Shown here piece by piece: positions 11,151-50,607 of a stretch of DNA of 64,000 nt. Position 1 is the stretch's first letter; every line of letters starts with the position of its first letter. Source of the stretch: Prorocentrum cordatum (lineage: Eukaryota); the NCBI GenBank assembly GCA_963575745.1, contig CAUYUJ010000225.1, forward strand, positions 1,240,001 to 1,304,000, given 5' to 3'. A program made the translations under genes and the position numbers. The notes under the pieces were generated by a model. That model was not told the origin of the DNA. It was given only the letters and a program-made list of their open reading frames with translations, and made no database searches.

Positions 11151-14027
11151 CCTGCCAGTGAGGGTCAGCCTCTGGGGGGTCAGGAACTCCTTGATTAGAT
11201 GGAGTAAAAACGGCATAAACATAAACTTTTGGCGCACCGCGCAGATTTCTCGGATCTGCGCTGGACCCCCCTCCCTGGCGCGCGGAGCGCGCCAGGGCGC
11301 CGCCGGAGGCGCCGCCAGAGGGGCCCAGCGCAGATCCAAGAAATCCGCGCGGAGCGCCAAAAGTTTATGTTTATGAGTTTGTTTCATCTTCGATTGGCCT
11401 GGCCTTGCTCGGGGCCGCCTTTGTCTGAACAGGTGTGCCCTCCCTGGTTTTTTCCTGGCAATTCCTCTGGAAGCTCTTCGCCGGGGCCAGCACTCCTCTC
11501 GGGCAACATGGCTTTCCTCAGTTTGCCCTCCGCTGACTCTAACCCCGCGAAGCCTGAGCCTGAACCCCCATCAGCAGGCGAACGGGAGAAACCCCCTGCT
11601 GTCATAAAAAACACCCGTTGTCAAAAGAAACACCGGTTGTCATACAAAAAAACGGCTGTCATAAAAAATAGCAACCAGCTGCCCTCAACCGTTTGTCATA
11701 ACAAAAACAGCCGCTTCGTATTCTTACGACAACCGTTTTTTTTCGTTTATGGCAACCAGTGTTTTTGTGGTGCCAAACGCTGTTTTCTATGACAACCCTT
11801 GTTTTTATGACAACCGGTGTTTTCTGTGACAACCGTTTTTTGTATAACGACCGGTTTGTATTGTATGACAACTGGTGTTTTTCAATGGCCCCCCCTCCGC
11901 CCCGCGGGCGCCAGGCCTCCAGCGAGCCGCGCGGCGGACCGGGCGGCGCGGCGCCCGCGAGCGTGCCGGCGGGCTGCCACGACAGCGCCACCTCGAGGCG
12001 CGGCTCCGCGCCGCTGCCTCCGCGGTGCGCGGAGCGGTCCGCGGTGCGCGGGGCTGCGCTTCAGTGGGGGCGACAAGTGGGTGAGGATCAGAAACGGGTC
12101 TCACGCGAGATGACCTAGCGACCTTACGCGGTGGCTTACGCGGGCCGCCAGCGCGGCACGCCACACTGGAGACGAGGGCGCTCACGCGCGAGCTTACGCG
12201 GGCAACTTACGTGCCAATGTCGGCGAAAACGTGCCCGTTTTTTCTTGCGTCGCTGAAGTGGGGGGGGGCGAAGAAGCGCCAGAGGCGATACAGCCGAGGC
12301 AAGGTCAAAATAACGCCGGTCATGAAGATGGGCCCCACCGCCGCGAGCCCAAGGCCCCATCGAGGTGCCCCCCAAAAAAGAGGGCCATCCCAAGGTGGAG
12401 GGCCAAGCACGACGAGCGCAACTCCTCCAACACGAGGGCTGCTCGTGGACCTCGTGCCAGCTCTGAGGTTATCAAAAGCGACGCCCTGGCCCAGAATGCT
12501 CCCAGCGACTCGCGCCACCGTGAGGGGTGCCAAGGATCGAGCGTTGCTTCGTGGGTGGGGCGATGAACGTGGGGGAGGAGGAGGAGGAGGAGGAGGAGGA
12601 GGAGGAGGAGGAGGAGGAGGAGGAGGAGGAGGAGGAGGAGGAGAAGGAGAAGGAAGAGGAGGAGGAGGAGGAGGAGGAGGAGGGGGAGGAGGAGGGGGAG
12701 AAGGAGGAGGAGGGGGAGGAGGAGGGGGAGGGGGAGGGGGAGGAGGAGGAGGAGGAGGAGGAGGAGGAGGAGGAGGAGGAGGAGGAGGAGGAGGAGGAAG
12801 AGGCAGAGGGGGGGGCGAAGAAACGGGCACCGCAAGAGGCCCTCAAGAGGGTGCAAGAGGGCCCCGAGACGCCCCCAAAATCGCCTCAGGACGCCCAAAA
12901 TGGCCCCAAGACGGCCCGAGAAGCTTGCAAGACGCCCCAAGATGCCTCCAAGAGGTTCTCCAAGAGGGCCCCAAGAGGCTAAATCATCGATTTCCATTGT
13001 CTTTGAAGGCTTTGGGCGGTCTCGCCTTCTTGGCTTCCCGACACTCCAAGACGGCCAAGATCGCCCCAAAACGAATGCAGAGGCCTCCAAGAGGGCCCCA
13101 AGATGGCCAGAGAGGCCTCCAAGAGGCCTCCCAAGAGCCCGAAAAGGCCAAAATCATTGATTGTCCTGAAGTTGTTGAAGGATTTGGGCGTTCTCGCTTT
13201 TTCGGCTTCCCTGCGCTCCAAGACGGCCCACGAGGCCCCCAAGAGGGCCCCAAGAAGGCCCAAGAGGGCCCCAGGACGGCCGAAGAGGCGCCTGAGACGA
13301 TGCAAGAAAACCTAAATTTGGCCCCAAGAGGGGGCCCCGATGGTGAGCCCGAGCGAACTTTACGAGCCCTCGGCCCCAGAGGCTCCCAGGAAGCCCCAAG
13401 AGGCCCCCACGAGGTCCCAAGAGGGTACAAAGAAGCCCCAGGAGGCCCGCAAGAGGCCCCCAAGAGACTCCCAAGAAGCCCCCAAACTGCTCCCAAGAGG
13501 CTCCCGAGAACTCGCTGAAGAGACCCGAAGAAGCATCCATGAGAACTCTGACAATCAATCCAGGCACGGTGGCGGGATGAGCCGACGGTCATTAGACAGC
13601 AAGGCAGATACTTGCGCAGAGGTATGGCAGAAGCAGCGACGGCAAGGTAGGGCCGAAATCGGCATAAAAGAAGCTTGGAACGACGCCCTACTAACGCACG
13701 AACTTGTCCAAAGTAGGACGGATCCAGAGTATGGGGGGGGGGGCTCACCGCCCATGAGGGAAGAGCCAAGGGGGGAGACAGGAAAATGGGGTTGGGGGGC
13801 CCCTCAAAGGAGAGCTTTTCTAAGGAGCTGGAATACATGCATCGACGCTTTTTGCGGCCCCGCACTGAGACTCGCACAAAAAAGCGGATTCAGGTGTGTA
13901 CGGGATTATGGTGTATACATGTTTCGCTGTTTCCCCATGGAAAACGGGAAAAAACATACGCCACACCACCCCGACGTCGTCCCCGACCCTCAAAAAGCCA
14001 TGGACTTGGAAAACAGCCCGCCACTGG

Positions 14028-32637: not shown

Positions 32638-32737
32638 NNNNNNNNNNNNNNNNNNNNNNNNNNNNNNNNNNNNNNNNNNNNNNNNNNNNNNNNNNNNNNN
32701 NNNNNNNNNNNNNNNNNNNNNNNNNNNNNNNNNNNNN
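32638..32737. other. Assembly gap
   Basis: 100 N. Confidence 1.
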
Positions 32738-35551: not shown

Positions 35552-35835
35552 GGGAAACACCACAAACTTAGGGAAAACCATTGGACAACAAAACAAAAAA
35601 ACAAAACACCCAAATGCCGGAAGCGAAAACTTTAGGGAAACCATTGGAACAGATCCAGGGAACACCGTCCGAAGGGATAAGCCCGAAGGGGAACCCCGCA
35701 GTCTCTGTGGAACCATTGTTTTTTTTGGTGTTTGGTTTTTGTTCTCCAATGGTTTTCCTAAAGTTTTCGCTTCAAGCACTTCAGTTTCTTTGGTTTTTAG
35801 TTGTTACAATGGTTTCCCCAAAGTTCTTGCATTCC
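35552..35835. mobile_element. Foldback MITE
   Basis: AAACTT(T)AGGGAAA(A)CCATTGGA occurs twice on the left, mirrored by CAATGGTTT(T)CCC.AAAGTT twice on the right. Confidence 0.8.
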
Positions 35836-37415: not shown

Positions 37416-38256
37416 GGGGACATGGCTTCCATCATGTCAGTTTTTCGGCATGTGAGCGGGAAGCCCATCGGCCTGTGATCCCGCGACGCAAGGGTGATTG
37501 TGGACTTTGCTTGCGGGGGCAGGGGCGCGACTCCATGTGGATCGAGGAGAGATCGCAATTCACGAATTCGTGACACTGGATTGTCTCTGCTGTGGTGCGT
37601 AAGAAAAGCAAATCAGGGAAACGACGCCACCCGTTAGGCCCGTACGGCCCTATGCATGTGTGTATGAATGAATGTCTGTCTGTCTCTGTCTGTCTGTCTG
37701 TATGTATGTATGTATGTATGTGTGCATGTATGTGTGCATGTATGCATGCATGAATGCATGTATGTATGTATGCATGTGTGTGCCTGGCTAAGGCCATCCT
37801 CGGCCCTGGCATGACGTATACGCCCCCTGGTCGAGGCCAGAAAAGCCTATGCACCATCGTGGGGTCCAGGATGGCCCACGTCGGGAACTGTGGTGGCAGA
37901 CTTGGCGGCGCGCACAAGGGGGTATGGGGGAGGGGGGAGGGCTTCTTAGGAGCACCCTGCTTCTTAGAAGACGCCGGCCCTACATCTGCAGAGAAGGCCC
38001 ACGCCTTCCAACAAGCAGGGGTGCTTCTAGAGAGCCTTCCCCCCTCCCCCTACCCTCAGGTCGGGCGTGTCCCTACAGGTGGATTTGGGAGGACAAACTA
38101 AAAAATATTCCAAACATTTTCAAAAGTAGTTGAAACATACAAAAAAAACGTTCCCAGACTATTATTCCCAACCATCCTGTGGTGTTGGGTCCTCGTTTTG
38201 AAGAGACGGCGCCCAGCGTTCCTCACCTCCTCCTCCTCCCCCCCCCTCCCTCCTCC

Positions 38257-38353
<97 letters not shown>

Positions 38354-38469
38354 TATATCATATCATCATCTTAATCATCATCATCACTCACCATCACCAT
38401 CACCATCAACCATCATCATCATCATCACAATCATCCTTCATCATCTTCAATATATCATCATCTTCATCA

Positions 38470-40050
38470 CCACACCCCGATTTCGGCAACCGCTCTAACG
38501 TTTCGTGGCCCCCCATTGGGGAGCTCACGAGAAAGGCCCCAGTGGCAGGGTCCGCATGCCTCACATCAACATTTCGGCACATCCCTAACACGTTTCGTGC
38601 CCATGGGGAGGCTCCACGATCGCCCCAGTCGGCAGAGGTCCGCATGGCCTCCCCACCACCCTTTCGGCCACCCTCCACAGTTTCGTGCCGGCCCCATAGG
38701 GAGCTCACCGAAGGCTCCAGTGGGCAGGGACCGCACCATGACTTCCCCACACCCTTTTCGGCGCACCCCTCACACGTTTCGTGGCCCCATAGGGAGCTCA
38801 CCGAAGGCCCCAGTGCCGCCGTCCGCATGCGTCCCGCACATCCCATTCGGCACACCCCTCACACGTTTCGTGGCCCCATAGGGAGCTCCACCGAAGGCCC
38901 CAGTGGCTGCGTTCGCATGCCTCCCACCACCCATTTCGGCACACCCCTCACACGTTTCGTGGCCCCATAGGGAGCTCCACCGAAGGCCCCAGTGGCAGGG
39001 TCCGCATGCCTCCCCACCACCCATGTCGGCACACCCCACACACGTTTCGTGGCCCCATAGGGAGCTCCACCACCAGCACCAGTGGCACTGGCAGTCTCCG
39101 CATGCCTCCCCACCACCCATTTCGGCACACCCCATCACACGTTCCGTGGCCCCATAGGGAGCTCCACCGAAGGCCCCAGTGGCTGCGTTCGCATGCCTCC
39201 CCACCACCCATTTCGGCACACCCCTCACACGTTTCGTGGCCCCATAGGGAGCTCCACCGAAGGCCCCAGTGGCAGGGTTCGCATGCCTCCCCCACACCCA
39301 TTTCGGCACACCCCTCACACGTTTCGTGGCCCCACAGGGAGCTCCACCGAAGGCCCCAGTGGCAGGGTTCGCATGCCTCCCCACCACCCATTTCGGCACA
39401 CCCCTCACACGTTTCGTGGCCCCATAGGGAGCTCCACCGAAGGCCCCAGTGGCCTGGTTCCCCACCACCCATTTCGGCACACCCCTCACACGTTTCGTGG
39501 CCCCATCCCACCGAAGGCCCCAGTGGCCGCATGCCCCCCACACCCATTTCGGCACATCCATCACACGTTTCGTGGCCCCATGGGGATTTCCACTGAAGGC
39601 CCCAGTGACTGGGTTCGCATGCGCCCCCCACACCCATTTCGGCACACCCCTCACACGTTTCGTGGCCCCATATGGAGCTCCACCGAAGGCCCCAGTGGCT
39701 GGGTTCGCATGCGCCCCCACACCCATTTCGGCACACCCCTCACACGTTTCGTGGCCCCACAGGGAGCTCCACCGAAGGCCCCAGTGGCTGCGTTCGCATG
39801 CCGCCCCCACACCAATTTCGGCACACCCCTCACACGTTTCGTGGCCCCACAGGGAGCTCCACCGAAGGCCCCAGTGGCTGCGTTCGCATGCCGCCCCCAC
39901 ACCAACTTCGGTGCACCCCTCACACGTTTCGTGGCCCCATAAGGAGCTCCACCGAAGGCCCCAGTGGCAACGTTCGCATGCCGCCCCCACACCCATTTCG
40001 GCACACCCCTCAAACGGTTCGTGGCCCCATAGGGAGATCCACCGAAGACG
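38470..40050 (+). repeat. 90-bp tandem satellite; degenerate copies at ~31600-32270, 45590-45940 and 59150-59640
   Basis: TTTCGGCACACCCCTCACACGTTTCGTGGCCCCATAGGGAGCTCCACCGAAGGCCCCAGTGGC at 39211, 39301, 39391 etc. Confidence 0.96.
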
Positions 40051-40205
40051 GTACTCACACCAGCATTACTCACAACTGCATATGGTTGGGTCCTTCGCCA
40101 GGCTGATTTTACTGTTTTTGAGTATTCCCCCTGTAGAGAGACACGCCCGACTTAACCCTACCCCCTCTGCGCGTGGCCGCTACACGGATGCCTTCTGCAG
40201 GACAG

Positions 40206-43136
40206 TCAGACGCCCTTCTCGAGGTCGCCCCCCTCGCCCGCTGGCGCTGCCGCGGCGGGCCTGCCGAGGGCGCGCGGCAGCGGCCTCCCGCGCCCCCGGC
40301 GGCCGCGCGGGGCTCCGCCGAAGGCCGCGCAGAAGGCGCCCCCCGCGGCCGGCGGCGGCGCCGGCGCCGCGCCGCCGAGGCCGGCGAGCAGCGGGCCCTG
40401 CGCCACGGGGCAGCAGCGTGGGTCCGTGCAGACGGCCTGCGGCAGGGCTGGACCCCAAGCGCTGTTTTGCGTTTCGTTTGCGCTGTTCGTTGTTCGTTGT
40501 GCTCTGTGCCTGTTCTCCTGTGCCTCCCGGCCAGAGCGAACGACAAAGCACAGCCGAAGTCCAGCAGAACAGCGTTTAGGTCCAGCCCTGGCCTGCGGCA
40601 CTGGCGGGACAGCGCCAGGCCCGCCAGCCCAGGGGGCGGCGCCCTGAGGCCGAGGCGGCGGTGTCGTGGCCTCGGGAGCCTTTGCGCTCGAGGCCACGAG
40701 GCTGGCCTCCGCGTGGACGCCAGTGCGCTGACGCTCGCGACCCATGAGCATCACGGACGAGCCGTTGAGCATCACCAGCAGCATGGATCCCAGGTCGACC
40801 AGTATGGCACCCAGGAGGGACGTATGGCCTAAGAAGGTGAAGGCCACGAATACGACCTTGCTGGCCAGCGCGAACGCTATGTTCTGTCGGACCTTACGCA
40901 GCACGCACCTGCCGAGGCGGAACGCGAAGGCCAAGCGCATGAGGTTCGAGTCCATCAGGACAATGTCCGCCGCCTCCAGCGCTGCCGCCCGGCCAGCCGC
41001 CCCCATGGCCACGCCCACGTGGGACGCCGCCAAAGCGGGGACATCGTTGATGCCGTCTCCCACCATGGAGACCGTCTGGTAGCTCTTGCACAAATCCAAC
41101 ACCTCGGCGATCTTGTCATCGGGCCTCAGGCCCGATCTGATGTCGACAATGCCGGTGCTCTCGCCCACGGCTTTCGCGGCACCTCGGCCGTCTCCAGTGA
41201 GCATCGACACGGCAATGCCCATGCTCTTGATCTCGGCGATGGCATCCTTGGCCTCTGGTCGCGGGACATCTGCCACGCTGAGCACCGCGAGCAGCCTCTG
41301 GTCGTCGCCGACCCAGAGGACCGATCCGCCCTCCTCGGCCCACCTGTCCACATGGAGCTCTGTCGACCAGCCCATCCGAGCAGCTAGCCGCTCGTTCCCG
41401 ATGGAGACGCAGACCCCCTCCACAGTGGCTCGGACGCCTTCTCCATGGACCTCGCGATAGTCGGCCACGTCTGTGGGCAGCTGTGCTGCGTCGCGCCGCT
41501 TCGCCTCCGTCACGAGCGCGAGCGCCAGAGGGTGGCTCGAGCGCGCCTCGATGGCCGCGATCCAGCGCCACAAGATATCCTCGCCCTTGCCCGCTGCATC
41601 GGGGCTCACCATCTGGAATTCCCGCACCCGGAAGCAGCCCTCTGTGAGTGTGCCCGTCTTGTCCAGAGCCGCCATCCTAACAGCACCCAGGGTTTCCAGA
41701 TGTACCCCTCCACGAACGAGCATGTTATGTGTCGCTGCACATGCGATCCCGCTCATGTAGGTGACTGGCGTGGAGATCACCATCGCACAAGGGCACGCGA
41801 CGACCAGCAGGACGAGGGTCATGTAGAAACACTCGGGCGCACGCTCGCGAGCCACAAACCATGGGGCGATCATCAGAAAAAAAGCAACGGTCAAAATGCA
41901 CGGGGTGTACAGCCGGGCGAATCTCTCGACGGTCTGCTCCGTGTTGGAGCGCAACGCCTGGGCGCCCTCGACCATCTTCACGAGCTGACCCACGGCCGAA
42001 TCCTTGCCCTGTGCTGTTGTCTCCACCTCGGCGTAGCCGCTGAGGTTTGTGGTCCCGGCCCACACCTTGGAGCCGACGGCCTTGGGAACAGGCGCGGACT
42101 CGCCTGACAGAGCACTCTCGTCCACCAACAGTGCCCCTGCTGTCACCACGCCATCCACGGGGATCGAGTCGCCCTGCCTCACCACGACGGAAGCGCCCAC
42201 GGCCAGATCGGAGGCCGCCACGCGCTCGCCGCTGGAGAGCTCCGCCTCCTCGGGGCGGAGGGCCAAGATCTCCGCTATGACCCCGCGCGCGCGCAGCGTG
42301 ATGCGGGACTCGAGGAAATCCGCCGTGGAGAAGAGGACCAGAACGGTGGCTGCCTCGCAGAAGTTTTCCAGCGCCAGGGCGCCAAGGCAGGCCATCAGGA
42401 CGAGGGTGTTTATGTCCAGGTGGCAGCGTGTGACTCCAGAGGCCGCACGAACCAGGACCTTCGGGGAGGTGAGCAGCAGCGACAGCACCGCGCTGACCCT
42501 GCTGGACCAGAAAACAAACGGCACCACCCCACCTACGGCCCCACGGGCCGTAGCGTATACCAGGACATCTGGCGTGGGTTTTTGCATGGGATGCGCTACG
42601 GCCCCCGATGGGCTGGAGGGCCGTAGGTGGGGTGGTGTCGTTTGTTTTCTGGCCGACCTGTGCACGCTCCATGAATTCAAAAGGTAGCCCGCCACAGACA
42701 CCGCCAGCAGCGCCGCTGCGGCCAAGAGGCGCGCGGGGATGCGCTTCACGGGCGCCCCTCTCTCCAGCTTCTGCACGCGCGCCCCCAGGGCAGCCCGGTT
42801 GAGCGCGGCAACCAGCTCGGTCCCGCCCACCACCCTGGCGTCGTGCCTTACCGTAGCTGTCTTAGTGGCGGGGTTTATGCCCACTTCTTGGACGCCCGCT
42901 AGAGGGCTCAAGATGCGATCTATTACCGGCACTTCGGACGGGCAGCAGAGGCCGTCCACGTAGATGAGCGTGCTTGTGACGCCCACGGTTTTCCTGTTCC
43001 TGGCTTTCCTCTTGGACGGGACGCTGGCGCCGTCGTGCCCGTCTTTCTCCTCCGTGTCTCTGGCCACAGCGTCTTCGTCGAACTCGCTGTCATCATCGAC
43101 GAGTCTGGACCATGCCCACTGGAAGAACGGGCTCAT
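40206..43136 (-). CDS. P1B-2-type (Zn/Cd-exporting, HMA2/HMA4/ZntA/CadA-like) heavy-metal P-type ATPase. Predicted exons 43136-42658, 42498-40593 and 40436-40206 (871 aa spliced; 976 aa if unspliced)
   Basis: N-terminal HMA domain with GLCCPSE (CCxxE), actuator DESALSGES, transmembrane CPC, phosphorylation site DKTGTLT, HP motif (SSHPLA), MLTGD, hinge MVGDGINDVPALA, Lys in QNIAFALASK and DLG in the last helix (P1B-2 signature), and a Cys pair in the C-terminal tail. No stops or frameshifts. Confidence 0.96.
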   Translation of the reverse strand: MSPFFQWAWSRLVDDDSEFDEDAVARDTEEKDGHDGASVPSKRKARNRKTVGVTSTLIYVDGLCCPSEVPVIDRILSPLAGVQEVGINPATKTATVRHDARVVGGTELVAALNRAALGARVQKLERGAPVKRIPARLLAAAALLAVSVAGYLLNSWSVHRSARKQTTPPHLRPSSPSGAVAHPMQKPTPDVLVYATARGAVGGVVPFVFWSSRVSAVLSLLLTSPKVLVRAASGVTRCHLDINTLVLMACLGALALENFCEAATVLVLFSTADFLESRITLRARGVIAEILALRPEEAELSSGERVAASDLAVGASVVVRQGDSIPVDGVVTAGALLVDESALSGESAPVPKAVGSKVWAGTTNLSGYAEVETTAQGKDSAVGQLVKMVEGAQALRSNTEQTVERFARLYTPCILTVAFFLMIAPWFVARERAPECFYMTLVLLVVACPCAMVISTPVTYMSGIACAATHNMLVRGGVHLETLGAVRMAALDKTGTLTEGCFRVREFQMVSPDAAGKGEDILWRWIAAIEARSSHPLALALVTEAKRRDAAQLPTDVADYREVHGEGVRATVEGVCVSIGNERLAARMGWSTELHVDRWAEEGGSVLWVGDDQRLLAVLSVADVPRPEAKDAIAEIKSMGIAVSMLTGDGRGAAKAVGESTGIVDIRSGLRPDDKIAEVLDLCKSYQTVSMVGDGINDVPALAASHVGVAMGAAGRAAALEAADIVLMDSNLMRLAFAFRLGRCVLRKVRQNIAFALASKVVFVAFTFLGHTSLLGAILVDLGSMLLVMLNGSSVMLMGRERQRTGVHAEASLVASSAKAPEATTPPPRPQGAAPWAGGPGAVPPVPQARAGPKRCSAGLRLCFVVRSGREAQENRHRAQRTTNSANETQNSAWGPALPQAVCTDPRCCPVAQGPLLAGLGGAAPAPPPAAGGAFCAAFGGAPRGRRGRGRPLPRALGRPAAAAPAGEGGDLEKGV
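40437..40592 (-). mobile_element. hAT-like MITE (40443-40590, 8-bp TSD) forming a 156-nt GC-AG intron in the ATPase
   Basis: TIRs CAGGGCTGGACC...GGTCCAGCCCTG (12 bp perfect, ~27 bp imperfect) and a perfect 8-bp TSD GCCTGCGG at 40435-40442 and 40591-40598. On the coding strand the TSD is CCGCAG|GC, which supplies both donor and acceptor. Confidence 0.88.
42499..42657 (-). mobile_element. Introner-like MITE forming a 159-nt GT-AG intron in the ATPase
   Basis: 35-bp inverted repeats at 42507-42541 and 42618-42652 (34/35 match). Minus strand reads CACAG|GTCGGCCAGAAAAC...GTTTTCTGGTCCAGCAG|GGTC with CAG duplicated at both ends. Removal joins SWSVHR-VSAVLSLLL. Confidence 0.85.
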
Positions 43137-43198
43137 TCAGCCCCAACCTGTGCGACAGCAGGCAACATGGAAGACGCACTGGGCTGCCCAAGACAGCA

Positions 43199-43220
43199 CT
43201 TGAGCCGAACCAGCTACGGA
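43199..43220 (-). promoter_or_regulatory. Relict dinoflagellate spliced leader (DinoSL) upstream of the ATPase
   Basis: Minus strand reads TCCGTAGCTGGTTCGGCTCAAG versus DinoSL DCCGTAGCCATTTTGGCTCAAG: 18/22 identical, with the first 8 and last 8 nt perfect. Sense orientation, 62 nt before the ATG. Confidence 0.9.
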
Positions 43221-45967
43221 GCCTGCTTTGTAGTACTCACTACTCTTCGCACGCACCTCAGAACAACGGAGTATACCCTTGGATCCCGGAACCCAACCAA
43301 AACTCGACCCAAAACTCCTGATGGGCAACGTTCAGGCAAAATGTTCTAGCCTTGTCCAGTCACGACGACTAGCAGATCCCCAGGGGGCATGAAACAAGGG
43401 CTTGCAATGCCATCTATGCAATCTGCTATGGTCTGCTCGCTGCTGCATTCTGGTCCCACGTTGTCCCACAAAGACATTCATCGTCCATCTCCATCGCCCT
43501 CCCCGACGAAGCCTCCGGAGGCCTTGCCGAGGCTCCTGCAAGCTGCTGCAAGCTTCCTGGACTCCTGGGAGGTCCCGGAGCTTCTGAACATCCATGGAAG
43601 CCCGTGACGGGTTCCTAAAAACAAAACGGCCCACGGAGATGCCAGAGCCCCGCGTCCCAGACAGGACAGGACGGGCGGGAGGACAGGAGGAGGAGGAGAA
43701 GGTGGAGGAGGAGGATGATGAGGAGCAGGAGGAGAAGGAGGAGGAAGAGCGGCAGAGGCAATCCGCTCGCGCGCTCGAGTTGCCAGGGGCGCTCGGCACA
43801 TGAACTTTCCAGCTGCAAGAGGACGAAGTGGCGGGGAGGAGCGGCCGCAAAGGAGAGGAGGGGGACCAGGGTCCTCGGACAGAATTGCGGGATGAATGGT
43901 CACCTCCTCCTCCTCCTCCTCCTCCTCCTCCTCCTCCTCCTCCTCCTCCTCCGCCACCGCCGCCGCCGCCGCCGCCGCCACGCCTCCTCCGCCTCCTCCT
44001 CCTCCTCCCTCCTCCTCCTCCCGCCTCCTCCTCCTCCGCCTCCTCCTCCTTCCTCCTCCTCCTCCGCCTCCCCTCCCTCCTCCTCCTCCTCCTCCTCCTC
44101 CTCCCTCCTCCTCCTCCTCCTCATCATCATCATCATCTCATCATCATCATCACCCCCTCCTTCGTCCTCGTCCTCCTCGTCGTCCTCCTCCTCTTCTTAT
44201 TTCTGCTCCTCCTCTTCCTCCTCCTCCTCTCCTCCTCCTCCTCCTCGCCTCCTCCTCCTCCTCCTCCTCCTCCTGCTTCTGCTCCTCCTCCCCCTCCCCT
44301 CCCCCTCCTCCCCTAGGACAGGACAGGCGCCGATGTACGCCTCAGGGGGAGGGCGGCCCTCCAAGAGCTAAGCGGGGGGGGCACCAGAGCGCCGAAACTC
44401 AGGTGCCGTAGCACGTGATTACAATCAACCCGCATCATAAGGACGCAAGATAAGGATGCAACTGCCGTGGAAGGCCATGCCGACATTTTGCGAGAGGGGC
44501 GCGGCTAGCGGAAGCGGCCAAGGACGGGCCGAAGGGGAAGGATGCAAGGGTAACCTTGGAAAGTCGCTCATCCTTACTACGCGGGCTGACTGTACTTCAC
44601 GAGCCAGAACTTTGCACCACTCTGCTGGTACAGTCTTTCCCATGAGCCTGAGATCGGGGAGCAGGCAATGGAATAAGCAGCAACTTTCGGAGGTCCGCGC
44701 GGATTTCTTGGATCGGTGCTGGTTCCCCCTTCCTGGCACGCGGAGCGCGCCATGGGCGGTGTCAGAAGCGCCGCCAAAGGGCTCCAACGCTGATCCGCGA
44801 AATCCGCGCGGACCTCCGCGAAATCATGTTTATGTCATTGTTTGCTCTTCAATGAGAGCGCCCCAGAGCGCGCCGCGAAAGACTCAAAAGGCGCCAAGAC
44901 AGGCCCGAGTGCTCGGCCACGCGCGAATCGAGGCCATGCATCCGAAGCTGCAAACGTTTTACGTGCCAGGATTCCCTGAAGGCCCGCCGTGATTTGTCCT
45001 CTGCGGGCTCAATGCGGGGCGGGCCCCCTGCGGGTCCTGGCCGTGTTGGGTTCCTGAGAGATTGGCGAGGTGAAGAAGAATAGAAGGCTTGAGATACCCC
45101 CCGTGCGAAAAGCAACTGGTGTTTTTGTACGCATTCCCCCCCGATTTCAACGTTCAATGCGGTGCCGATGGTTTGTCCGACACTCGGCGGTCGCGCGATC
45201 AACATTGAAATGGAGGGCCAGGGGGCTGGCCAAACACCAATTGCTCTTCGCAGGCTAATCTGCAGGCGCAGAGAAAGTTCTTAGGGAGGCCAGGAGCGCG
45301 AGTCACGGCGAGACCCCCGAGCACCCGAATTCTCGTGGACGCTTATTGGCGGTCCAAACGGCCCCAACTTTTCCCAAGATCGGCTCCAGACGGCCCAAGA
45401 CGGCTCCTATATGGGCCACGACGCCGCCAAGGCGCCCCAAGAAGGCTCCAAGAAAACCCCAATGAAGGCCTCCAGATGCAGATATACAATTGATTCCCAA
45501 CCATCATGTGTTGTTGGGCCCCCGTTATGAAAATACTACGCCCCGCGTCCCACATCACTTTCCTCCTTCCCTTCCTTCCTCCTCCCGTCCCTGACATTTC
45601 GGCACACCCCGCACACGCTTCGCAGCCCCATCGGGAGCTCCACGGAAGGTCCACGTGGCAGCGCACGCATGGCTGCGCCGCCCCCTGTTGGCACACCCCT
45701 CGCACGCTTCGCAGCCCCATGCGGCAGCGTCGGCATGGCGGCAGCATCCCCCATTTTAGCACATCATTCACGCGCCACGTGGCCCCATACGGCAGGGAGT
45801 TTCACCGAGGGCCCCAGCGCCGCCTCCATTTGGGCACACCCCATCACACGCTTCGTGGCCCCGTATGGAGCTTCGCCGAAGGCCCACGCGGCAGCGCCCG
45901 CCAGGCGGCGCCGCCTCCATGTGGGGAGCTTCACGCCGCTTCGGCGATGGTGGAATAGTTGTGCAAA

Positions 45968-47810
45968 TTGACCGGCTGACCGGTTGACCGGCTGACCGGC
46001 TGACCGGTTGACCGGTTGACCGGCTGACCGGCTGACCGGCTAACTGGCTGACCAGCTGACCGGTTGACCGGCTGACCGGTCGACCGGCTGACCGGCTGAT
46101 TGGCAGACCGGCTGACCGGTTGAACGGTTGACCGGCTGACTGGTTGACCGGCTGACCGGGCGACCGGCTGACCGGTCGACCGGTGACCACATGACCAGCT
46201 GACAAGCTGACCTGCGGACCGGTTGACCGGCTGACCGGTCGACCGGTCGCGGCTGACCGGCTGACCAGTTGACCGGTTGACCGGCTGACCGGCTGACCGG
46301 CTGACCGGCTGGCCGCGTGAAGAAGCTGATGAAGGCGCTGACCAGCTGACCGGTTGACCGGCTGACCGGCTGACCGGCTGACCGGTTGACTGGCTGACCT
46401 GCTGACCGGCTGACCAGGTTGACCGGTTGACCGAATGACCGGTTGACCGGCTGACCAGCTGACCGGCTGACCGGCTGACCGGCTGACCAGCTGACCGGCT
46501 GACCGGTGAACTGGCTGACCGGCTGACCGGCTGACCGGCTGACCGGCTGACCATGGCTGACCGGCTGACCGGTTGACCGGCTGACCGGTCGACCGGCTGA
46601 CCGGCTGATTGGCTGACCGGCTGACCGGTTGACCGGTTGACCGGCTGACCGGTTGACCGGCTGACCGGGCGACCGGCTGACCGGTCGACCGCTGACCACA
46701 TGACCAGCTGACAAGCTGACCTGCGGACCGGTTGACCGGCTGACCGGTCGACTGGTCGCGCTGACCGGCTGACCGGTTGACCGGTTGACCGGCTGACCGG
46801 TTGACCGGCTGACCGGCTGGCCGCGTGAAGAAGCTGATGAAGGCGCTGACCAGCTGACCGGTTGACCGGCTGACCGGCTGACCGGCTGACCGGTTGACCA
46901 GCTGACCTGCTGACGGGCTGACCAGGTTGACCGGTTGACCGGTTGACCGGTTGACCGGCTGACCGGCTGACCGGCTGACCGGCTGACGGGCTGACCGACT
47001 GACCGGCTGACCGGTGGACTGGCTGACCGGCTGACCGGCTGACCGGCTGACTGGCTGACCGGCTAACTGGCTGACTGGCTGACCAGTTGACCGGCTGACC
47101 GGTCGACCGGCTGACCGGCTGATTGGCTGACAGGCTGAGCGGTTGACCGGCTGACCTGTTGACCGGCTGACCGGGCGACCGGCTGACCGGTCGACCGCTG
47201 ACCACATGACCAGCTGACACGCTGACCTGCGGACCGGTTGACCGGCTGACTGGTCGACCGGTCGCGGCTGACCGGCTGACCGGTTGACCGGTTGACCGGC
47301 TGACCGGCTGACCGGCTGACCGGCTGGCCGCGTGAAGAAGCTGATGAAGGCGCTGACCAGCTGACCGGTTGACCGGCTGACCGGCTGACCGGCTGACCGG
47401 TTGACCGGCTGACCTGCTGACCGGCTGACCAGGTTGACCGGTTGACCGGTTGACCGGTTGACCGGCTGACCGGCTGACCGGCTGACCGGCTGACCGGCTG
47501 ACCGGCTGACCGGTGGACCGGCTGACCGGCTGACCGGCTGACCGGCTGACCGGTTGACCGGCTGACCGGTTGACCGGCTGACCGGGTGACCGGCTGACCG
47601 GTCGACTCGCTGACCACATGACCAGCTGACAAGCTGACCTGCGGACCGGTTGACCGGCTGACCGTATGACCGGCTGACCGGGTGACCGGGTGACCAGCTG
47701 ACCGGTGGACTGGGTGACCGGGTGACCGGGTGTCCGGGTGACCGCGGGTGACCGGGTGACCGGCTGACCGGTTGACCGGCTGACTGGTTGACCGGGTGAC
47801 CGGGTGACCG
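45968..47810 (+). repeat. 8-bp (TGACCGGY)n satellite with ~508-bp higher-order repeat; second array at ~58545-59135
   Basis: TGACCGGC/TGACCGGT/TGACCGGG units. A marker insert GGCCGCGTGAAGAAGCTGATGAAGGCGC lies at 46311, 46819 and 47326. Confidence 0.96.
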
Positions 47811-50607
47811 GGCCTTCAGAGGCACGCGGGGAGACGCGACGGTGCCACCAGAGGGCTCAAAGACGCCGAAAGATCGCTCTCAAGATGGCCCCCGGACGGC
47901 CGAAGATGCCTCCAAGACGCCCCAAGAGGCCTCCAAGAGGCCTCCCAAGAGGGCCCGAAGAGGCAAACATGTTTGCTTTTCTATAATTTGTGTCAAAATC
48001 CTTAAGGTTTTCTCGTTTTCGGCTTCCCGACGCTCCAAGACGGCCCAAGAGGCCCCAAGATCGCCCCAAGACGGCCCAGGAGGCCCCCAAGACGGGCCCA
48101 AGACGGCCCAAGAGGGCCCCAAGACGGCCCCAGAGGCCTCCAAGACGGCCCAGGAAGCCCCCAAGACGGCTCCAAGAGGGGGCCCAGACGGGGGACCCGA
48201 ACGGAAATTTCGAGCCCTCGGCCTCCAGAAGCCTCCAGGATACCCCGAGAGGCCTCCGAAAGGCTCCAAGAAGCCCCAAGAGTCCCCTCGCGAGACAGGC
48301 CCCAAGAGGCCCCAAAACGGTCCCCAAGAGGCCTCAAAAATGCTTCCAAGAGGCCTCCGAGAAGCCTACCACGAGATCACAAACGAACACTCAACAGACC
48401 TTTAACCCAGAACCCAGGCACGGTGGCGGGATGGGCCGAAGGCCATTCGATCCGCCGTCCCCTGTTGATTCATCACAGGTGGGTTCCTTTTCCCCCCCTG
48501 AAAAAACTCCCCCTGGCTCTGGCCCAGCCCGCCGGCCACCCGGAAGGGCCCACACGAGGTGGTCGCAAAGGTTTTTCCTGCTCCCGACGGCTCCAAGATT
48601 GCCTAAGATGGCTTCCAAGAGGGCCAAGATGGCCTTCAAGTTCGCCGAAAATGGTCCAAGATGCCTTCTCAGACGGCCCAAGAGGGTCCAAGATACCTCC
48701 AAGTTCGCCCAAGAAGCCTCCAAGACGGCCCAAGGGGCCCCCAAAAGGCCTCCAAGACGGCCCAAGAGGCCTCCAAGAGGCCCTCCAGGAGAGCCCGAGG
48801 AGATCAAAATCAGTGATTTCCCGATTGTTTTTCAAATCTTTTGACATTTGCTTCTTTTTGGCATTCCGACGGCTCAAGACGGCTCAAGAGGCCCCCAAGA
48901 TCGCCCTAAGATCGCCCACGAGGCCTCCAGGGTGGCCCTATGACGGCCCAAGAGGCCCCCAAGACGGCCCCAAGAGGGCCCCAACAGACCTCCAAGACGG
49001 CCAAGATGGCCTCCAAGACGGCTAAGATGGCCCAAAGATGCCTCCAAGACGGCCCAAGATGCACCCAAAACGGCCCGGGATGGCTTCAAGATGGCCCAAG
49101 ACGGCTCAAGAGGCCCCCAAGAGGCCTCCAAGACGGCCCAAGAGGCCTCCAAGAGGTCCTCCAGGAGGGCCCGAAGATACCGAAATCAATGATGTTCCTA
49201 AGGTTTTTGATATATGTTGGCATTTGTTTTTTTTGTTCGGCATTCCGACGGTCAAAACGACCCAAGAGGCCCCAAGATCGCCCCAAGATCGACCACGAGG
49301 CCTCCAAGATGGCCCCATGACAGCCCAAGAGGCCCCCAAGACGGCCCCAAGACGGCCCAAGAGGCCTCCAAGACGGCCAAGATGGTCTCCAAGACGGCCC
49401 TGAAGCGTTGCAACACGGGCCCCAAGTCGGTTCAGAGAGGCCCCCAAGACGGCCTCCGACGGCGTCAGACGGATCAGGAAAGCCCTAAGACGGCCAAAGA
49501 GGCCCCCAAGAAGCCCCCAAAGGCCCCCAAGAGGCCCCCAAGAGGCCCCCAAGGGGCTCCATAGTGGTCCCGAAAGGCCCCCAGGAAGCTCCGCAGAGGT
49601 CTCCCAAGAGGCCCCCCAAGACGTTCCCAAGAAGTCTCCTCCTCCTCGTCGTCCTCCTCCTCGTCGTCCTCCTCCTCCTCCTCCTCCTCCTCCTCCTCCT
49701 CTTCCTAATCCGGCTTCTCCAGCCTCGTCCTTCTCTTCCAGCCTCCTCCTCTTCCTCCTCCTCCTCCTCCTCCACCATCATCCTTATCATCATCCTCATC
49801 CTCCTCGTAATAATCATCCTCCCTCTCCTGGTCCTCCTCCTCTTCCTGCTCCCCCACGCGCTCCCCGAAGTCTTTCCAAACCGATTTGGGAAAAAAACTG
49901 GCCGGATAGCTTGGCCAAGCTCTGGCCCAGCTGTCGGCCACACAGGCACTTCCAAACGGGCAAGGCGCGGCGGTGATTCGCCGTAGGAGTCTTCGATACA
50001 GATGCCCGTACTTCCCGTCCTGACCAGAATCTCGAAGCGAAGCCAGCCGTGGCGGCGAGAACTCTCCAGGACGAGCAGCGGTATCGGCATCTCAGCCGGA
50101 TCCTCCTCCCCTCCTCGCCCCTGGACGGGTTCGGAGCGTCCGCGTTCCCACCCGAAGCGCGCCATGCCCACGAGAGGCGACGAGCCAGACGCCCCTCGGG
50201 GCCCCAGCGCGCCGAGCCCCCATCGGCGAGGACTGCCTGAAGCCCGCCGCGCACCCTCGCGCCAAAGGCGAGCCCAGCGCGACGTCGACCGCGTCGTCCT
50301 CTTCCTCCTCCTCATCCTTCTCGTCGTCCTCGTCCCCCTCCTCCCCCCCTCCTCCTCCTCCTCCTCCTCTTCCTCCTCCTCCTCCGTCATGAGTAAGGGT
50401 AAGAGAAAGACGAATAAAGATGACGGCGGCCAAGAAAACCATCGGAGTATTTCGTGGTAGTCATCGCCACGGAAGCACGCGCCTCAAGCCACGAATCTCC
50501 GCCTAGGCGCCTAGGACAGTTATGGTCGCATGGATGCACCAGCCGACGCGCAAGGACCCTTGCGGGAGTCACTGGATACCAATATGCGTAGATGTATAAG
50601 GCGCAAG

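What the first reader, a model, noticed from the sequence alone, without database searches (positions are those of the whole stretch)
40206..43220. Retrogene being re-intronised: SL-relict metal ATPase carrying two independent introner-like transposons
Seen: a 2.9-kb intact ATPase ORF with a DinoSL relict upstream, whose only two detectable interruptions are TIR elements with target duplications and usable splice sites. Known: dinoflagellate mRNAs carry a trans-spliced leader, genomic SL relicts mark retroposed genes, and introner transposons generate introns in dinoflagellates. Inference: the locus records a full cycle of mRNA retroposition (all introns lost) followed by de novo intron gain from two unrelated DNA-transposon families. 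The order of events is readable because spliced introns could not have survived retroposition.
Basis: partly seen in the sequence, partly recalled or inferred. Interest (0 to 1): 0.88.

Follow-up and report, generated by a model that had tools for sequence, protein, structure and literature searches.

The report
Retrogene ATPase with two transposon-derived introns
A dinoflagellate zinc/cadmium-pump gene that carries the scar of having been copied back from mRNA is interrupted only by two small hairpin transposons that are cut out of its transcripts as introns, a clean worked example of two already known processes acting in turn.

Summary
The minus strand at 40206-43136 is one 976-aa P1B Zn/Cd-type ATPase ORF. 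A 17/21 DinoSL relict lies 63 nt upstream of its ATG. Two inserts carry terminal inverted repeats. One is 159 nt, with 35-nt arms and a 4-nt CAGG repeat. The other is 156 nt, with a perfect 8-bp duplication CCGCAGGC. One contig in each of 3 runs from 3 studies skips both inserts and ends inside the relict. No relative has either segment, and both lack the exons' codon-position GC bias.

Four limits apply.
- Copy number is barely tested. I found one diverged copy of insert 1 and short partial matches to insert 2.
- No DNA run was laid, so transcripts from an insert-free gene copy are not excluded.
- No parent gene was found.
- There is a third gap of 2240 nt in the 3'UTR with non-canonical ends. 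It spans a third TIR element with an 8-bp duplication.

Both processes are published, for this species too, so interest is moderate.

The parts
43199..43220 (-). DinoSL relict TCCGTAGCTGGTTCGGCTCAAG, 63 nt upstream of the ATG
   Evidence: 17/21 to the DinoSL 21-mer and unique in the window. 0.02 expected per 64 kb. Transcript contigs end at 43204 or 43214, inside it.
42658..43136 (-). Coding exon 1 (479 nt): N-terminus, HMA domain with a CCPSE motif, first membrane helix
   Evidence: Covered by contigs of X1, X5 and X11 with 0 other letters.
42499..42657 (-). Intron 1, the 159-nt TIR insert: GT..AG, phase 2, arms 42618-42652 / 42507-42541, CAGG direct repeat at 42660-42657 and 42501-42498
   Evidence: I1, 35 nt, 97%. 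Skipped in 3 of the 4 runs laid. Hairpin of -105 kcal/mol, z -11.3. In-frame GC3 is 0.615 against an exon median of 0.81.
40593..42498 (-). Coding exon 2 (1906 nt): actuator domain, CPC membrane motif, DKTGT phosphorylation site, nucleotide-binding domain, last membrane helices
40437..40592 (-). Intron 2, the 156-nt TIR insert: GC..AG, phase 0, arms 40579-40590 / 40443-40454, 8-bp duplication CCGCAGGC at 40598-40591 and 40442-40435; both splice sites lie inside the duplication
   Evidence: (I7). Skipped in 3 of the 4 runs laid, junction ambiguity 11. Hairpin of -75.8 kcal/mol, z -6.3. GC3 is 0.54.
40206..40436 (-). Coding exon 3 (231 nt including the stop at 40206-40208): poorly conserved Cys/Pro/Gly-rich C-terminal tail
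40154..40205 (-). First 52 nt of the 3'UTR, up to the third joint
   Evidence: Contig pieces end at 40154/40155 in X1, X5 and X11
37914..40153 (-). Third gap in the transcript contigs (2240 nt) with non-canonical ends (AA..GT, or TA..TG if shifted by one)
   Evidence: The 30 loose letters of the X1 contig match 37884-37913 exactly. Sequence.
38056..40155 (-). Third TIR element (about 2.1 kb) inside that gap: 8-bp duplication GGGTAGGG at 40163-40156 and 38055-38048, TIR of about 26 nt, carrying a 90-bp x 17.7 tandem array (38473-40047) and a CAT microsatellite
37799..37913 (-). Further 3'UTR reached by the contigs after the gap (30, 94 and 115 nt in three runs)
   Evidence: (record lengths). 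Only the first 30 nt were seen and matched.

Best explanation
The gene is a Zn/Cd-type P1B ATPase, most likely of Prorocentrum cordatum. It was re-inserted into the genome from a trans-spliced, fully cis-spliced mRNA. That left the spliced-leader sequence as a relict at its 5' end and a coding region without introns (inferred).

Later, two unrelated non-autonomous DNA transposons landed in the coding region. One makes a 4-bp target duplication and the other an 8-bp one. That they are insertions is shown. Their order relative to retroposition is inferred.

Each insert is removed as a spliceosomal intron, because the duplicated target supplies an AG|G. In insert 2 both splice sites lie in the two copies of CCGCAG|GC. 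In insert 1 the donor G|T spans the border between duplication and element, and the acceptor AG lies in the second CAGG. Cutting at the same point in both copies removes the element plus one duplication and restores the original reading frame. The whole-length hairpins should bring the two splice sites together. The present mRNA is probably trans-spliced again at an AG in or next to the relict (inferred from where the contigs end).
For: Gene model.
- The spliced ORF equals the 871-aa NCBI protein named P. cordatum (P0001) exactly.
- One contig each in X1, X5 and X11 (3 studies; 2840, 2851 and 2765 nt) skips 159 and 156 nt with 0-1 other letters. These runs show no depth over 39600-40031 or 43344-43900. 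This, with about 100 Mb of contigs per run, points to RNA.

The inserts are foreign.
- 0 of 10 homologues have either segment.
- TIRs and duplications are; the hairpins have z -11.3 and -6.3.
- The exons have GC3 0.82 and GC2 0.52. The inserts are flat, with GC3 0.615 and 0.54, at or below the lowest 52-codon window of the exons.

Retroposition.
- The relict is unique in the window, with 0.02 expected per 64 kb. It sits on the right strand, 63 nt before the ATG, and the contigs end inside it.
- P. cordatum genes average 9.8 introns for a 2.8-kb CDS, and only 2.4% of its introns are of the inverted-repeat type (PMC10666404, Table 2 and supplementary note). Here 2 of 2 coding introns are of that type.

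Order of events.
- The relict has 4/21 changes, while the arms of insert 1 differ at 1/35 and the 8-bp duplication at 0/8.

Precedent.
- The donors (GT, GC) and the AGG acceptor fit the species' usage.
- Roy et al. (preprint) describe 4- and 8-nt duplication classes that recruit splice sites from the duplication.
Against: - No parent or close paralogue appears in the best 120 listed of 6404 hits; the next best after P0001 has 63% identity.
- I saw no poly(A) remnant and no duplication flanking the whole retrocopy.
- Family size is almost untested. There is no second copy of either insert in the window. Two protein word-searches found nothing, as did two metagenome pattern scans.
- Only contigs were laid, and no run on record as DNA. 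Splicing therefore cannot be told from transcription of an insert-free copy.
- The third gap has non-canonical ends. That would fit a DNA-level difference between the assembled copy and the transcribed copy.
- Song et al. report that retrogenes have about as many introns as other genes, and that some seem to keep parental introns.
- The duplication of insert 1 is only 4 nt.
Confidence: 0.65

Rival explanations
1. The transcripts come from a second, insert-free copy or allele of the gene. The window's copy merely carries transposon insertions that are not, or need not be, spliced.
For: Precise splicing at a target duplication gives the same sequence as the empty site, so the contigs cannot decide. 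The third joint (40154|37913) has no GT/GC/GA..AG ends. It keeps the duplication plus 2 nt of the large element, which looks like an excision footprint with a flanking deletion. Both inserts are 3n and stop-free, so an unspliced copy would still be translatable. All four runs differ from the window at 41095.
Against: Both inserts have a donor and an AG|G acceptor exactly where removal restores the frame. An unspliced insertion has no need of that. The exons of the contigs match the window with 0-1 other letters over 2746 nt. The public annotation was built from transcripts with donors GT, GC and GA allowed (PMC10666404 methods), and it models both as introns.
Confidence: 0.12
2. The gene was never retroposed. 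The leader-like 21-mer arose otherwise, and the gene is intron-poor for another reason. It could have been intronless since a bacterial-type origin, or it could belong to the 16% of genes without introns. The two transposon introns are simply its first introns.
For: After the dinoflagellate-like hits, the next relatives are bacterial Cd/Zn ATPases at about 40% identity. 16.3% of P. cordatum genes lack introns. No parent, poly(A) remnant or flanking duplication was found. The relict lacks the TTTT core.
Against: A 17/21 match is expected 0.02 times per 64 kb on both strands, and far less often within 100 nt of this ATG on the coding strand. The contigs end inside it, as expected if its internal AG is the acceptor. 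SL relicts are accepted retroposition tags (PMC5585692 and PMC6050394, passages).
Confidence: 0.1
3. The two inserts predate retroposition. They were in the parent gene and survived because the retroposed RNA was trans-spliced but not fully cis-spliced.
For: Song et al. 2017 state that some retrogenes appear to retain parental introns and suggest retroposition before or during splicing.
Against: It would require every ordinary intron to be removed while exactly the two hairpin-type introns were kept. The TIR arms of insert 1 (1/35) and the duplication of insert 2 (0/8) are much less decayed than the relict (4/21).
Confidence: 0.06
4. The inserts are exonised: they are translated as extra loops of a 976-aa protein.
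For: Both are 3n and stop-free in frame. They lie in a length-variable loop after the first membrane helix and in the unconserved C-terminal tail.
Against: No contig retains them in the 4 runs laid, although contigs drop rare forms. Their codon-position composition is non-coding. The annotated product lacks them.
Confidence: 0.03

Closest known systems
Introner elements / introner-like elements of dinoflagellates (Roy et al. preprint 10.1101/2020.10.14.339549, text read; Dougan et al. 2023, PMC10666404; Farhat et al. 2021, PMC7789003)
   Same: Short non-autonomous TIR elements with target duplications that are spliced out. The splice sites are recruited from an AGG-containing duplication. 4-nt and 8-nt duplication classes occur side by side, with GT and GC donors and an AG|G acceptor. 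The introns are hairpin-forming. Such introns are already reported for P. cordatum, as 2.4% of its introns.
   Different: Multi-copy family membership is not shown here, because the genome is not held. The two inserts match no other sequence in the window. Both happen to be 3n and stop-free.
DinoSL-relict retrogenes (Slamovits and Keeling 2008, recalled and cited in the papers read; Song et al. 2017, PMC5585692; Song et al. 2018, PMC6050394)
   Same: A leader-like 21-mer lies on the coding strand 63-84 nt before the ATG. That falls in the -50 to -100 window where Song et al. find the best-kept relicts. Its internal AG can serve as the new acceptor. It is an orphan, as are more than 90% of such genes.
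   Different: The TTTT core that Song et al. find preferentially kept is lost here (TGGTTC). Those papers treat retrogene introns as 'novel or inherited' without naming a source. Here the whole coding-intron set is transposon-derived.
P1B-2 Zn/Cd/Pb ATPases (ZntA, PDB 4umv; plant HMA2/HMA4 type, recalled)
   Same: HMA domain, CPC membrane motif, DKTGT site, and ZntA as the best solved relative. The N-terminal CCPSE resembles the plant CCxSE zinc site (recalled).
   Different: It has a long, unconserved Cys/Pro/Gly-rich tail. No functional data exist.
Non-canonical hairpin introns of Amoebophrya (Farhat et al. 2021, passages read)
   Same: The third gap has non-GT/AG ends and encloses palindromic TIR elements.
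   Different: It is one case, seen in contigs only. It is 2.2 kb long, whereas that study analysed introns of 40-1000 bp. A DNA-level deletion is an equally good reading.

Membership tests
Introner element in the pattern sense (Farhat 2021 / Dougan 2023) | The segment is an intron, that is, absent from the mature transcript | tested here: met
   Both segments are skipped in one contig each of X1, X5 and X11, 3 of the 4 runs laid, and in the public protein. Caveat: these are contigs, and no DNA control was laid.
Introner element in the pattern sense (Farhat 2021 / Dougan 2023) | Inverted repeats of 8-20 nt within 30 nt of each intron end | tested here: met
   Insert 1 has 35-nt arms starting 5 and 8 nt from its ends. 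Insert 2 has 12 perfect bases starting 2 and 6 nt from its ends.
Introner element in the pattern sense (Farhat 2021 / Dougan 2023) | Short direct repeats overlapping the exon/intron borders | tested here: met
   CAGG (4 nt) and CCGCAGGC (8 nt). The junction ambiguities of 4 and 11 agree.
Introner family in the strict sense (Huff 2016, Gozashti 2022, Roy 2023) | Many near-identical copies forming introns in unrelated genes | tested here: inconclusive
   There are 0 further copies in the 64-kb window. Two protein word-searches gave 0 hits, and two metagenome scans gave 0. One diverged copy of insert 1 sits in a different context (P0121, E 8e-6 library-wide; 54-66% identity by the three tools). 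Two contigs share about 38 nt of one end of insert 2 with other flanks. No genome is held.
Introner family in the strict sense (Huff 2016, Gozashti 2022, Roy 2023) | Splice sites carried by the element and/or recruited from the target duplication, so that splicing restores the target | tested here: met
   Sequence. The spliced product equals P0001.
DinoSL-relict retrogene | DinoSL or a relict within 500 bp upstream of the ORF on the coding strand | tested here: met
   A 17/21 match at 43219-43199, with 0.02 expected per window. The longest exact runs are 7 and 8 nt of the 21-mer, so it is a decayed relict and not an exact 9-mer.
DinoSL-relict retrogene | A parent copy with more introns and fewer relicts | tested here: not met
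   No second P. cordatum protein appears among the best 120 listed of 6404 hits. Most retrogenes are orphans, so this does not exclude membership. The genome itself could not be searched.
DinoSL-relict retrogene | Loss of the parental introns | not testable with these tools
   Support is indirect only: 2 coding introns against a species mean of 9.8, both of transposon type.
P1B-type heavy-metal ATPase | HMA domain, E1-E2 ATPase and HAD hydrolase domains, a DKTGT site and a CPC membrane motif | tested here: met
   Pfam E-values are 6e-6, 1.5e-43 and 3e-23. D492-K-T-G-T496 and C448-P-C450 are invariant in the alignment. ZntA is the best solved relative.
hAT-like non-autonomous element (insert 2 and the 2.1-kb element) | 8-bp target duplication and short TIRs; the cognate transposase | tested here: inconclusive
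   Perfect 8-bp duplications are present in both. No transposase domain was found in the 53 other large ORFs of the window scanned. Assigning 8-bp duplications to hAT is recalled, not tested.

The most novel reading that the evidence does not exclude
SL relicts work as time stamps, and they show that hairpin TIR transposons are the main way dinoflagellate retrogenes regain introns. That would explain why Song et al. found retrogenes to be as intron-rich as other genes. The insertions that survive in coding DNA would be enriched for 3n, stop-free elements at AGG targets, which are harmless whether or not they are spliced. In addition, the 2.2-kb composite TIR element in the 3'UTR would be removed from RNA at non-canonical ends. 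That would be a hairpin-associated excision of the kind so far described only in the parasite Amoebophrya.
Probability: 0.15. Interest if true: 0.75.

Novelty: new member of a known kind. Interest (0 to 1): 0.45.

Why it matters
The locus puts two dinoflagellate peculiarities in a readable order in one gene: recycling of mRNAs into the genome, and intron creation by transposons. It suggests a simple genome-wide test, which is to compare the share of inverted-repeat introns in relict-bearing genes with the 2.4% background. That test would show whether transposons are what re-fills retrogenes with introns.

As a single locus it adds an example, not a principle. The gene model is already in the public annotation, and both processes are already published for this species or its relatives.

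Tried and rejected
- Whole genome: none is held, so genome-wide copy counts and a parent search were impossible.
- Copies of the inserts. blastn-short in the window found none beyond the inserts themselves. Protein word-searches with the in-frame peptides, restricted to longer proteins, found none; the 'near' length class was not searched. Two exact-pattern scans of metagenome contigs found 0. The second pattern fitted only one arm of insert 2, and neither scan found the window itself, so this says little.
- Earlier findings of this scan: nothing in 4 look-ups.
- The listing of cluster members for the sources of P0121, P0002 and P0001 was switched off, so the organism of P0121 is unknown.
- P0122, the second hit, is a repeat protein at 36% identity. 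I discount it as a compositional match.
- X15, a poly(A) metatranscriptome, covers the exons but its contigs stop short of both inserts. It neither shows nor denies the joints.
- No contig retains an insert. Contigs drop rare forms, so this is not evidence that retention never happens.
- Context: Pfam on 53 other large ORFs of the window gave only low-complexity matches, with no transposase or reverse transcriptase. Rfam gave 0 matches.
- A 7-bp duplication CAGG(G)TC for insert 1 was considered. I dropped it in favour of the exact 4-nt CAGG, which needs no indel.
- Papers: 'retrogene' + 'introner' gave 8 papers, of which 6 were listed, none on dinoflagellates. Retroposition / spliced leader / dinoflagellate / intron gain gave 30 papers, of which 15 were listed. 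I opened four of those 15 (PMC5585692, PMC6050394, PMC11453091, PMC12014239; passages only). None links relict-bearing genes with transposon-made introns. The published version of Roy et al. (Curr Biol 2023) and the spreadsheet tables of Dougan et al. were not seen.
Full report
WHAT IS THERE

On the minus strand, 40206..43136 is one stop-free frame of 976 codons. It is by far the longest of the 152 frames of at least 170 aa in the window. Pfam finds an HMA domain, the E1-E2 ATPase domain and the HAD hydrolase domain. The best solved relative is the zinc pump ZntA (4umv, E 9e-91), followed by a cadmium ATPase. The DKTGT phosphorylation site and the CPC membrane motif are invariant in the alignment with relatives. 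It is a P1B heavy-metal pump of the Zn/Cd type. The sub-type signature and the CCxSE zinc site are recalled, not tested.

THE TWO INSERTS

Insert 1 is 42499..42657, 159 nt. It has 35-nt arms that are 97% complementary. A 4-nt direct repeat CAGG lies at both borders. Its ends are GT..AG and it sits in phase 2.

Insert 2 is 40437..40592, 156 nt. It has 12 perfect terminal inverted bases, about 24 with mismatches. A perfect 8-bp duplication CCGCAGGC lies directly outside them. Its ends are GC..AG and it sits in phase 0. Both of its splice sites lie inside the two copies of the duplication (CCGCAG|GC).

Both inserts fold into almost whole-length hairpins. The energies are -105.1 kcal/mol (z -11.3) and -75.8 kcal/mol (z -6.3), and 0 of 200 shuffles fold as well in either case. 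The two share no sequence with each other and have different duplication lengths. They therefore come from different elements.

THEY ARE NOT CODING SEQUENCE

The exons have the strong codon-position bias of this organism, with GC3 0.82 and GC2 0.52. The inserts are flat. Read in frame, their GC3 is 0.615 and 0.54, at or below the lowest of all 52-codon windows of the exons.

In an alignment with 11 relatives, none has either segment. Insert 1 falls in a loop of variable length after the first membrane helix. Insert 2 falls in the unconserved C-terminal tail, where absence from relatives says little.

THEY ARE ABSENT FROM THE TRANSCRIPT

It is letter for letter the NCBI protein that its source names Prorocentrum cordatum (P0001). 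The window therefore most likely comes from that species.

Of the 24 public runs listed, 20 hold the stretch or part of it. Fourteen hold 0.80 of its sampled words, which is about what exons plus UTRs make of the 3301 nt asked. I laid four runs, all kept as contigs.

In X1, X5 and X11, which belong to three studies, a single contig of 2840, 2851 or 2765 nt covers three pieces: 40154/5-40433, 40590-42497 and 42657-43204/43214. Each contig has 0-1 other letters, and each skips 156 and 159 nt. The 159-nt skip reads GT..AG on the coding strand.

The kind of these three runs is not on record. They show no depth over 39600-40031 or 43344-43900, and they hold only about 100 Mb of contigs. Both facts point to RNA.

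The fourth run, X15, is a poly(A) metatranscriptome. It covers the exons, but its contigs stop before both inserts, so it is silent on the joints.

THE LEADER RELICT

Minus strand 43219..43199 matches the 21-nt DinoSL at 17/21. The motif is as printed in PMC5585692. It is the only match with up to 6 mismatches on either strand of the window. Simulated sequence gives 0.02 matches with up to 4 mismatches per 64 kb.

The relict lies 63 nt before the ATG on the coding strand. The three contigs end at 43204 or 43214, inside it. That is what one expects if the AG within CCGTAG, or the AG at its end, is today's trans-splice acceptor. Song et al. note that this internal AG can serve as an acceptor. 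No contig carried leader letters, so trans-splicing itself is inferred.

WHY RETROPOSITION FIRST, INSERTION SECOND, IS THE BEST READING

P. cordatum genes average 9.8 introns for a 2.8-kb coding sequence, and 83.7% of genes have introns (PMC10666404, Table 2). Only 2.4% of its introns carry the inverted-repeat signature (supplementary note). Here a 2.6-kb coding sequence has two introns, and both carry it. Two random draws would do so about 6 times in 10,000.

The relict has decayed at 4 of 21 places. The arms of insert 1 differ at 1 of 35 and the 8-bp duplication at 0 of 8. This fits younger insertions, although hairpins and splice sites may be under selection.

The way the introns are made has published precedent. 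Roy et al. describe dinoflagellate classes with 4-nt and 8-nt duplications. They also describe classes that take both splice sites from an AGG-containing duplication, or the donor from the last G of the duplication plus the first base of the element.

WHAT REMAINS OPEN

1. Copy number. The genome is not held.
   - The window has no second copy of either insert.
   - Protein word-searches and metagenome pattern scans found nothing.
   - A full HMMER pass over 1.84 billion proteins found one 132-aa protein of unknown origin, P0121. It carries a diverged copy of the whole of insert 1 between unrelated flanks. The scores are E 8e-6 library-wide, 54-66% identity depending on the tool, and 3e-12 by tblastn against the window.
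   - Two contigs share about 38 nt of one end of insert 2 and then diverge: X5 record 22 and X15 record 14.
   - Both elements therefore have relatives elsewhere, but 'family of many introns' is not shown.
2. Splicing versus an insert-free copy. Splicing at a duplication recreates the empty site, so contigs cannot exclude that the mRNA comes from an insert-free copy. No run on record as DNA was available, and the one laying call is spent. Against that rival, both inserts have a proper donor and an AG|G acceptor exactly where removal restores the frame. Also, the annotation, which was built from transcripts, models them as introns.
3. No parent. No P. cordatum paralogue appears among the best 120 listed of 6404 hits. 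There is no poly(A) remnant. Orphans are the rule among such genes.
4. Inherited introns. Song et al. report retrogenes that seem to keep parental introns. 'Introns cannot survive retroposition' is therefore a strong presumption, not a law.

The three contigs run on beyond 40154 for 94, 115 and 30 letters that do not follow in the window. The 30 letters shown for X1 match 37884..37913 exactly. The transcripts therefore also lack 37914..40153, which is 2240 nt of 3'UTR. The ends are AA..GT, or TA..TG if shifted by one. Neither fits any donor used in this species.

The gap contains a third TIR element, 38056..40155. It has a TIR of about 26 nt and a perfect 8-bp duplication GGGTAGGG. It carries a 90-bp tandem array of 17.7 copies and a CAT microsatellite. 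It sits inside the left arm of a palindrome of about 140 nt.

The joint keeps the duplication plus 2 nt of the element and removes about 140 nt beyond its far end. Two readings are open. One is a non-canonical, hairpin-associated removal from RNA, as described for Amoebophrya. The other is a DNA difference, such as an imprecise excision, between the assembled copy and the transcribed copy. I cannot decide between them. The second reading is what keeps the insert-free-copy rival alive.

COMPARISON AND VERDICT

This locus is a member of two known kinds at once: a leader-relict retrogene, and a gene with inverted-repeat (introner-type) introns. The latter are already reported for this species.

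My two paper searches on the link gave listings of 15 of 30 and 6 of 8 papers. I read passages of four of those papers. None explicitly ties relict-bearing genes to transposon-made introns. The published version of Roy et al. and the spreadsheet supplements of Dougan et al. were not seen.

It is an instructive example, not a new principle.

Noticed in passing
window 37914-40153 (minus strand): The transcript contigs of three runs skip 2240 nt of 3'UTR at a joint with no GT/GC/GA..AG ends. The gap holds a 2.1-kb TIR element with a perfect 8-bp duplication GGGTAGGG and a 90-bp x 17.7 tandem array.
   Followed up: partly
window about 37918-38057, continuing at 40156-40165: A palindrome of about 140 nt (MITE-like) in the 3'UTR. 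The 2.1-kb element appears to have landed in its left arm, giving a nested pair of hairpin elements.
   Followed up: partly
window 41095: All four runs laid read C where the window has T. That is A>G on the coding strand, GAT>GGT, Asp>Gly at residue 681 of the unspliced frame and 628 of the spliced protein. The 63%-identical relative P0002 has Gly there. It could be RNA editing, a strain difference or an assembly error.
   Followed up: no
window 42499-42657 and 40437-40592: Both inserts are multiples of three and stop-free in the gene's frame. Insert 1 is stop-free in 3 of 6 frames and insert 2 in 4 of 6. Chance is roughly 0.04 for both together. It may mean that coding insertions survive best when they are harmless even if unspliced.
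   Followed up: partly
window 43303-43323 (minus strand): A second, much weaker leader-like stretch lies about 83 nt upstream of the relict: TTTTGGGTCGAG, 2 mismatches to the last 12 nt of DinoSL and 13/21 overall. It is followed by another TTTTGG. It could be an older relict, but it is not significant on its own.
   Followed up: no
window 11214-11375 and 35595-35798: Two further hairpin elements with long arms: 59 nt at 92% and 54 nt at 80%. They are unrelated in sequence to the inserts in the ATPase gene.
   Followed up: no
window 43663-44314 and 45768-47879: Long GGA/CCT-type trinucleotide repeats lie just upstream of the gene. Repeat-encoded open frames of up to 703 aa give only low-complexity Pfam matches. 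No other recognisable gene was found among the 53 large frames scanned.
   Followed up: partly
window 32638-32737: A run of 100 N, which is a scaffold gap in the assembly.
   Followed up: no
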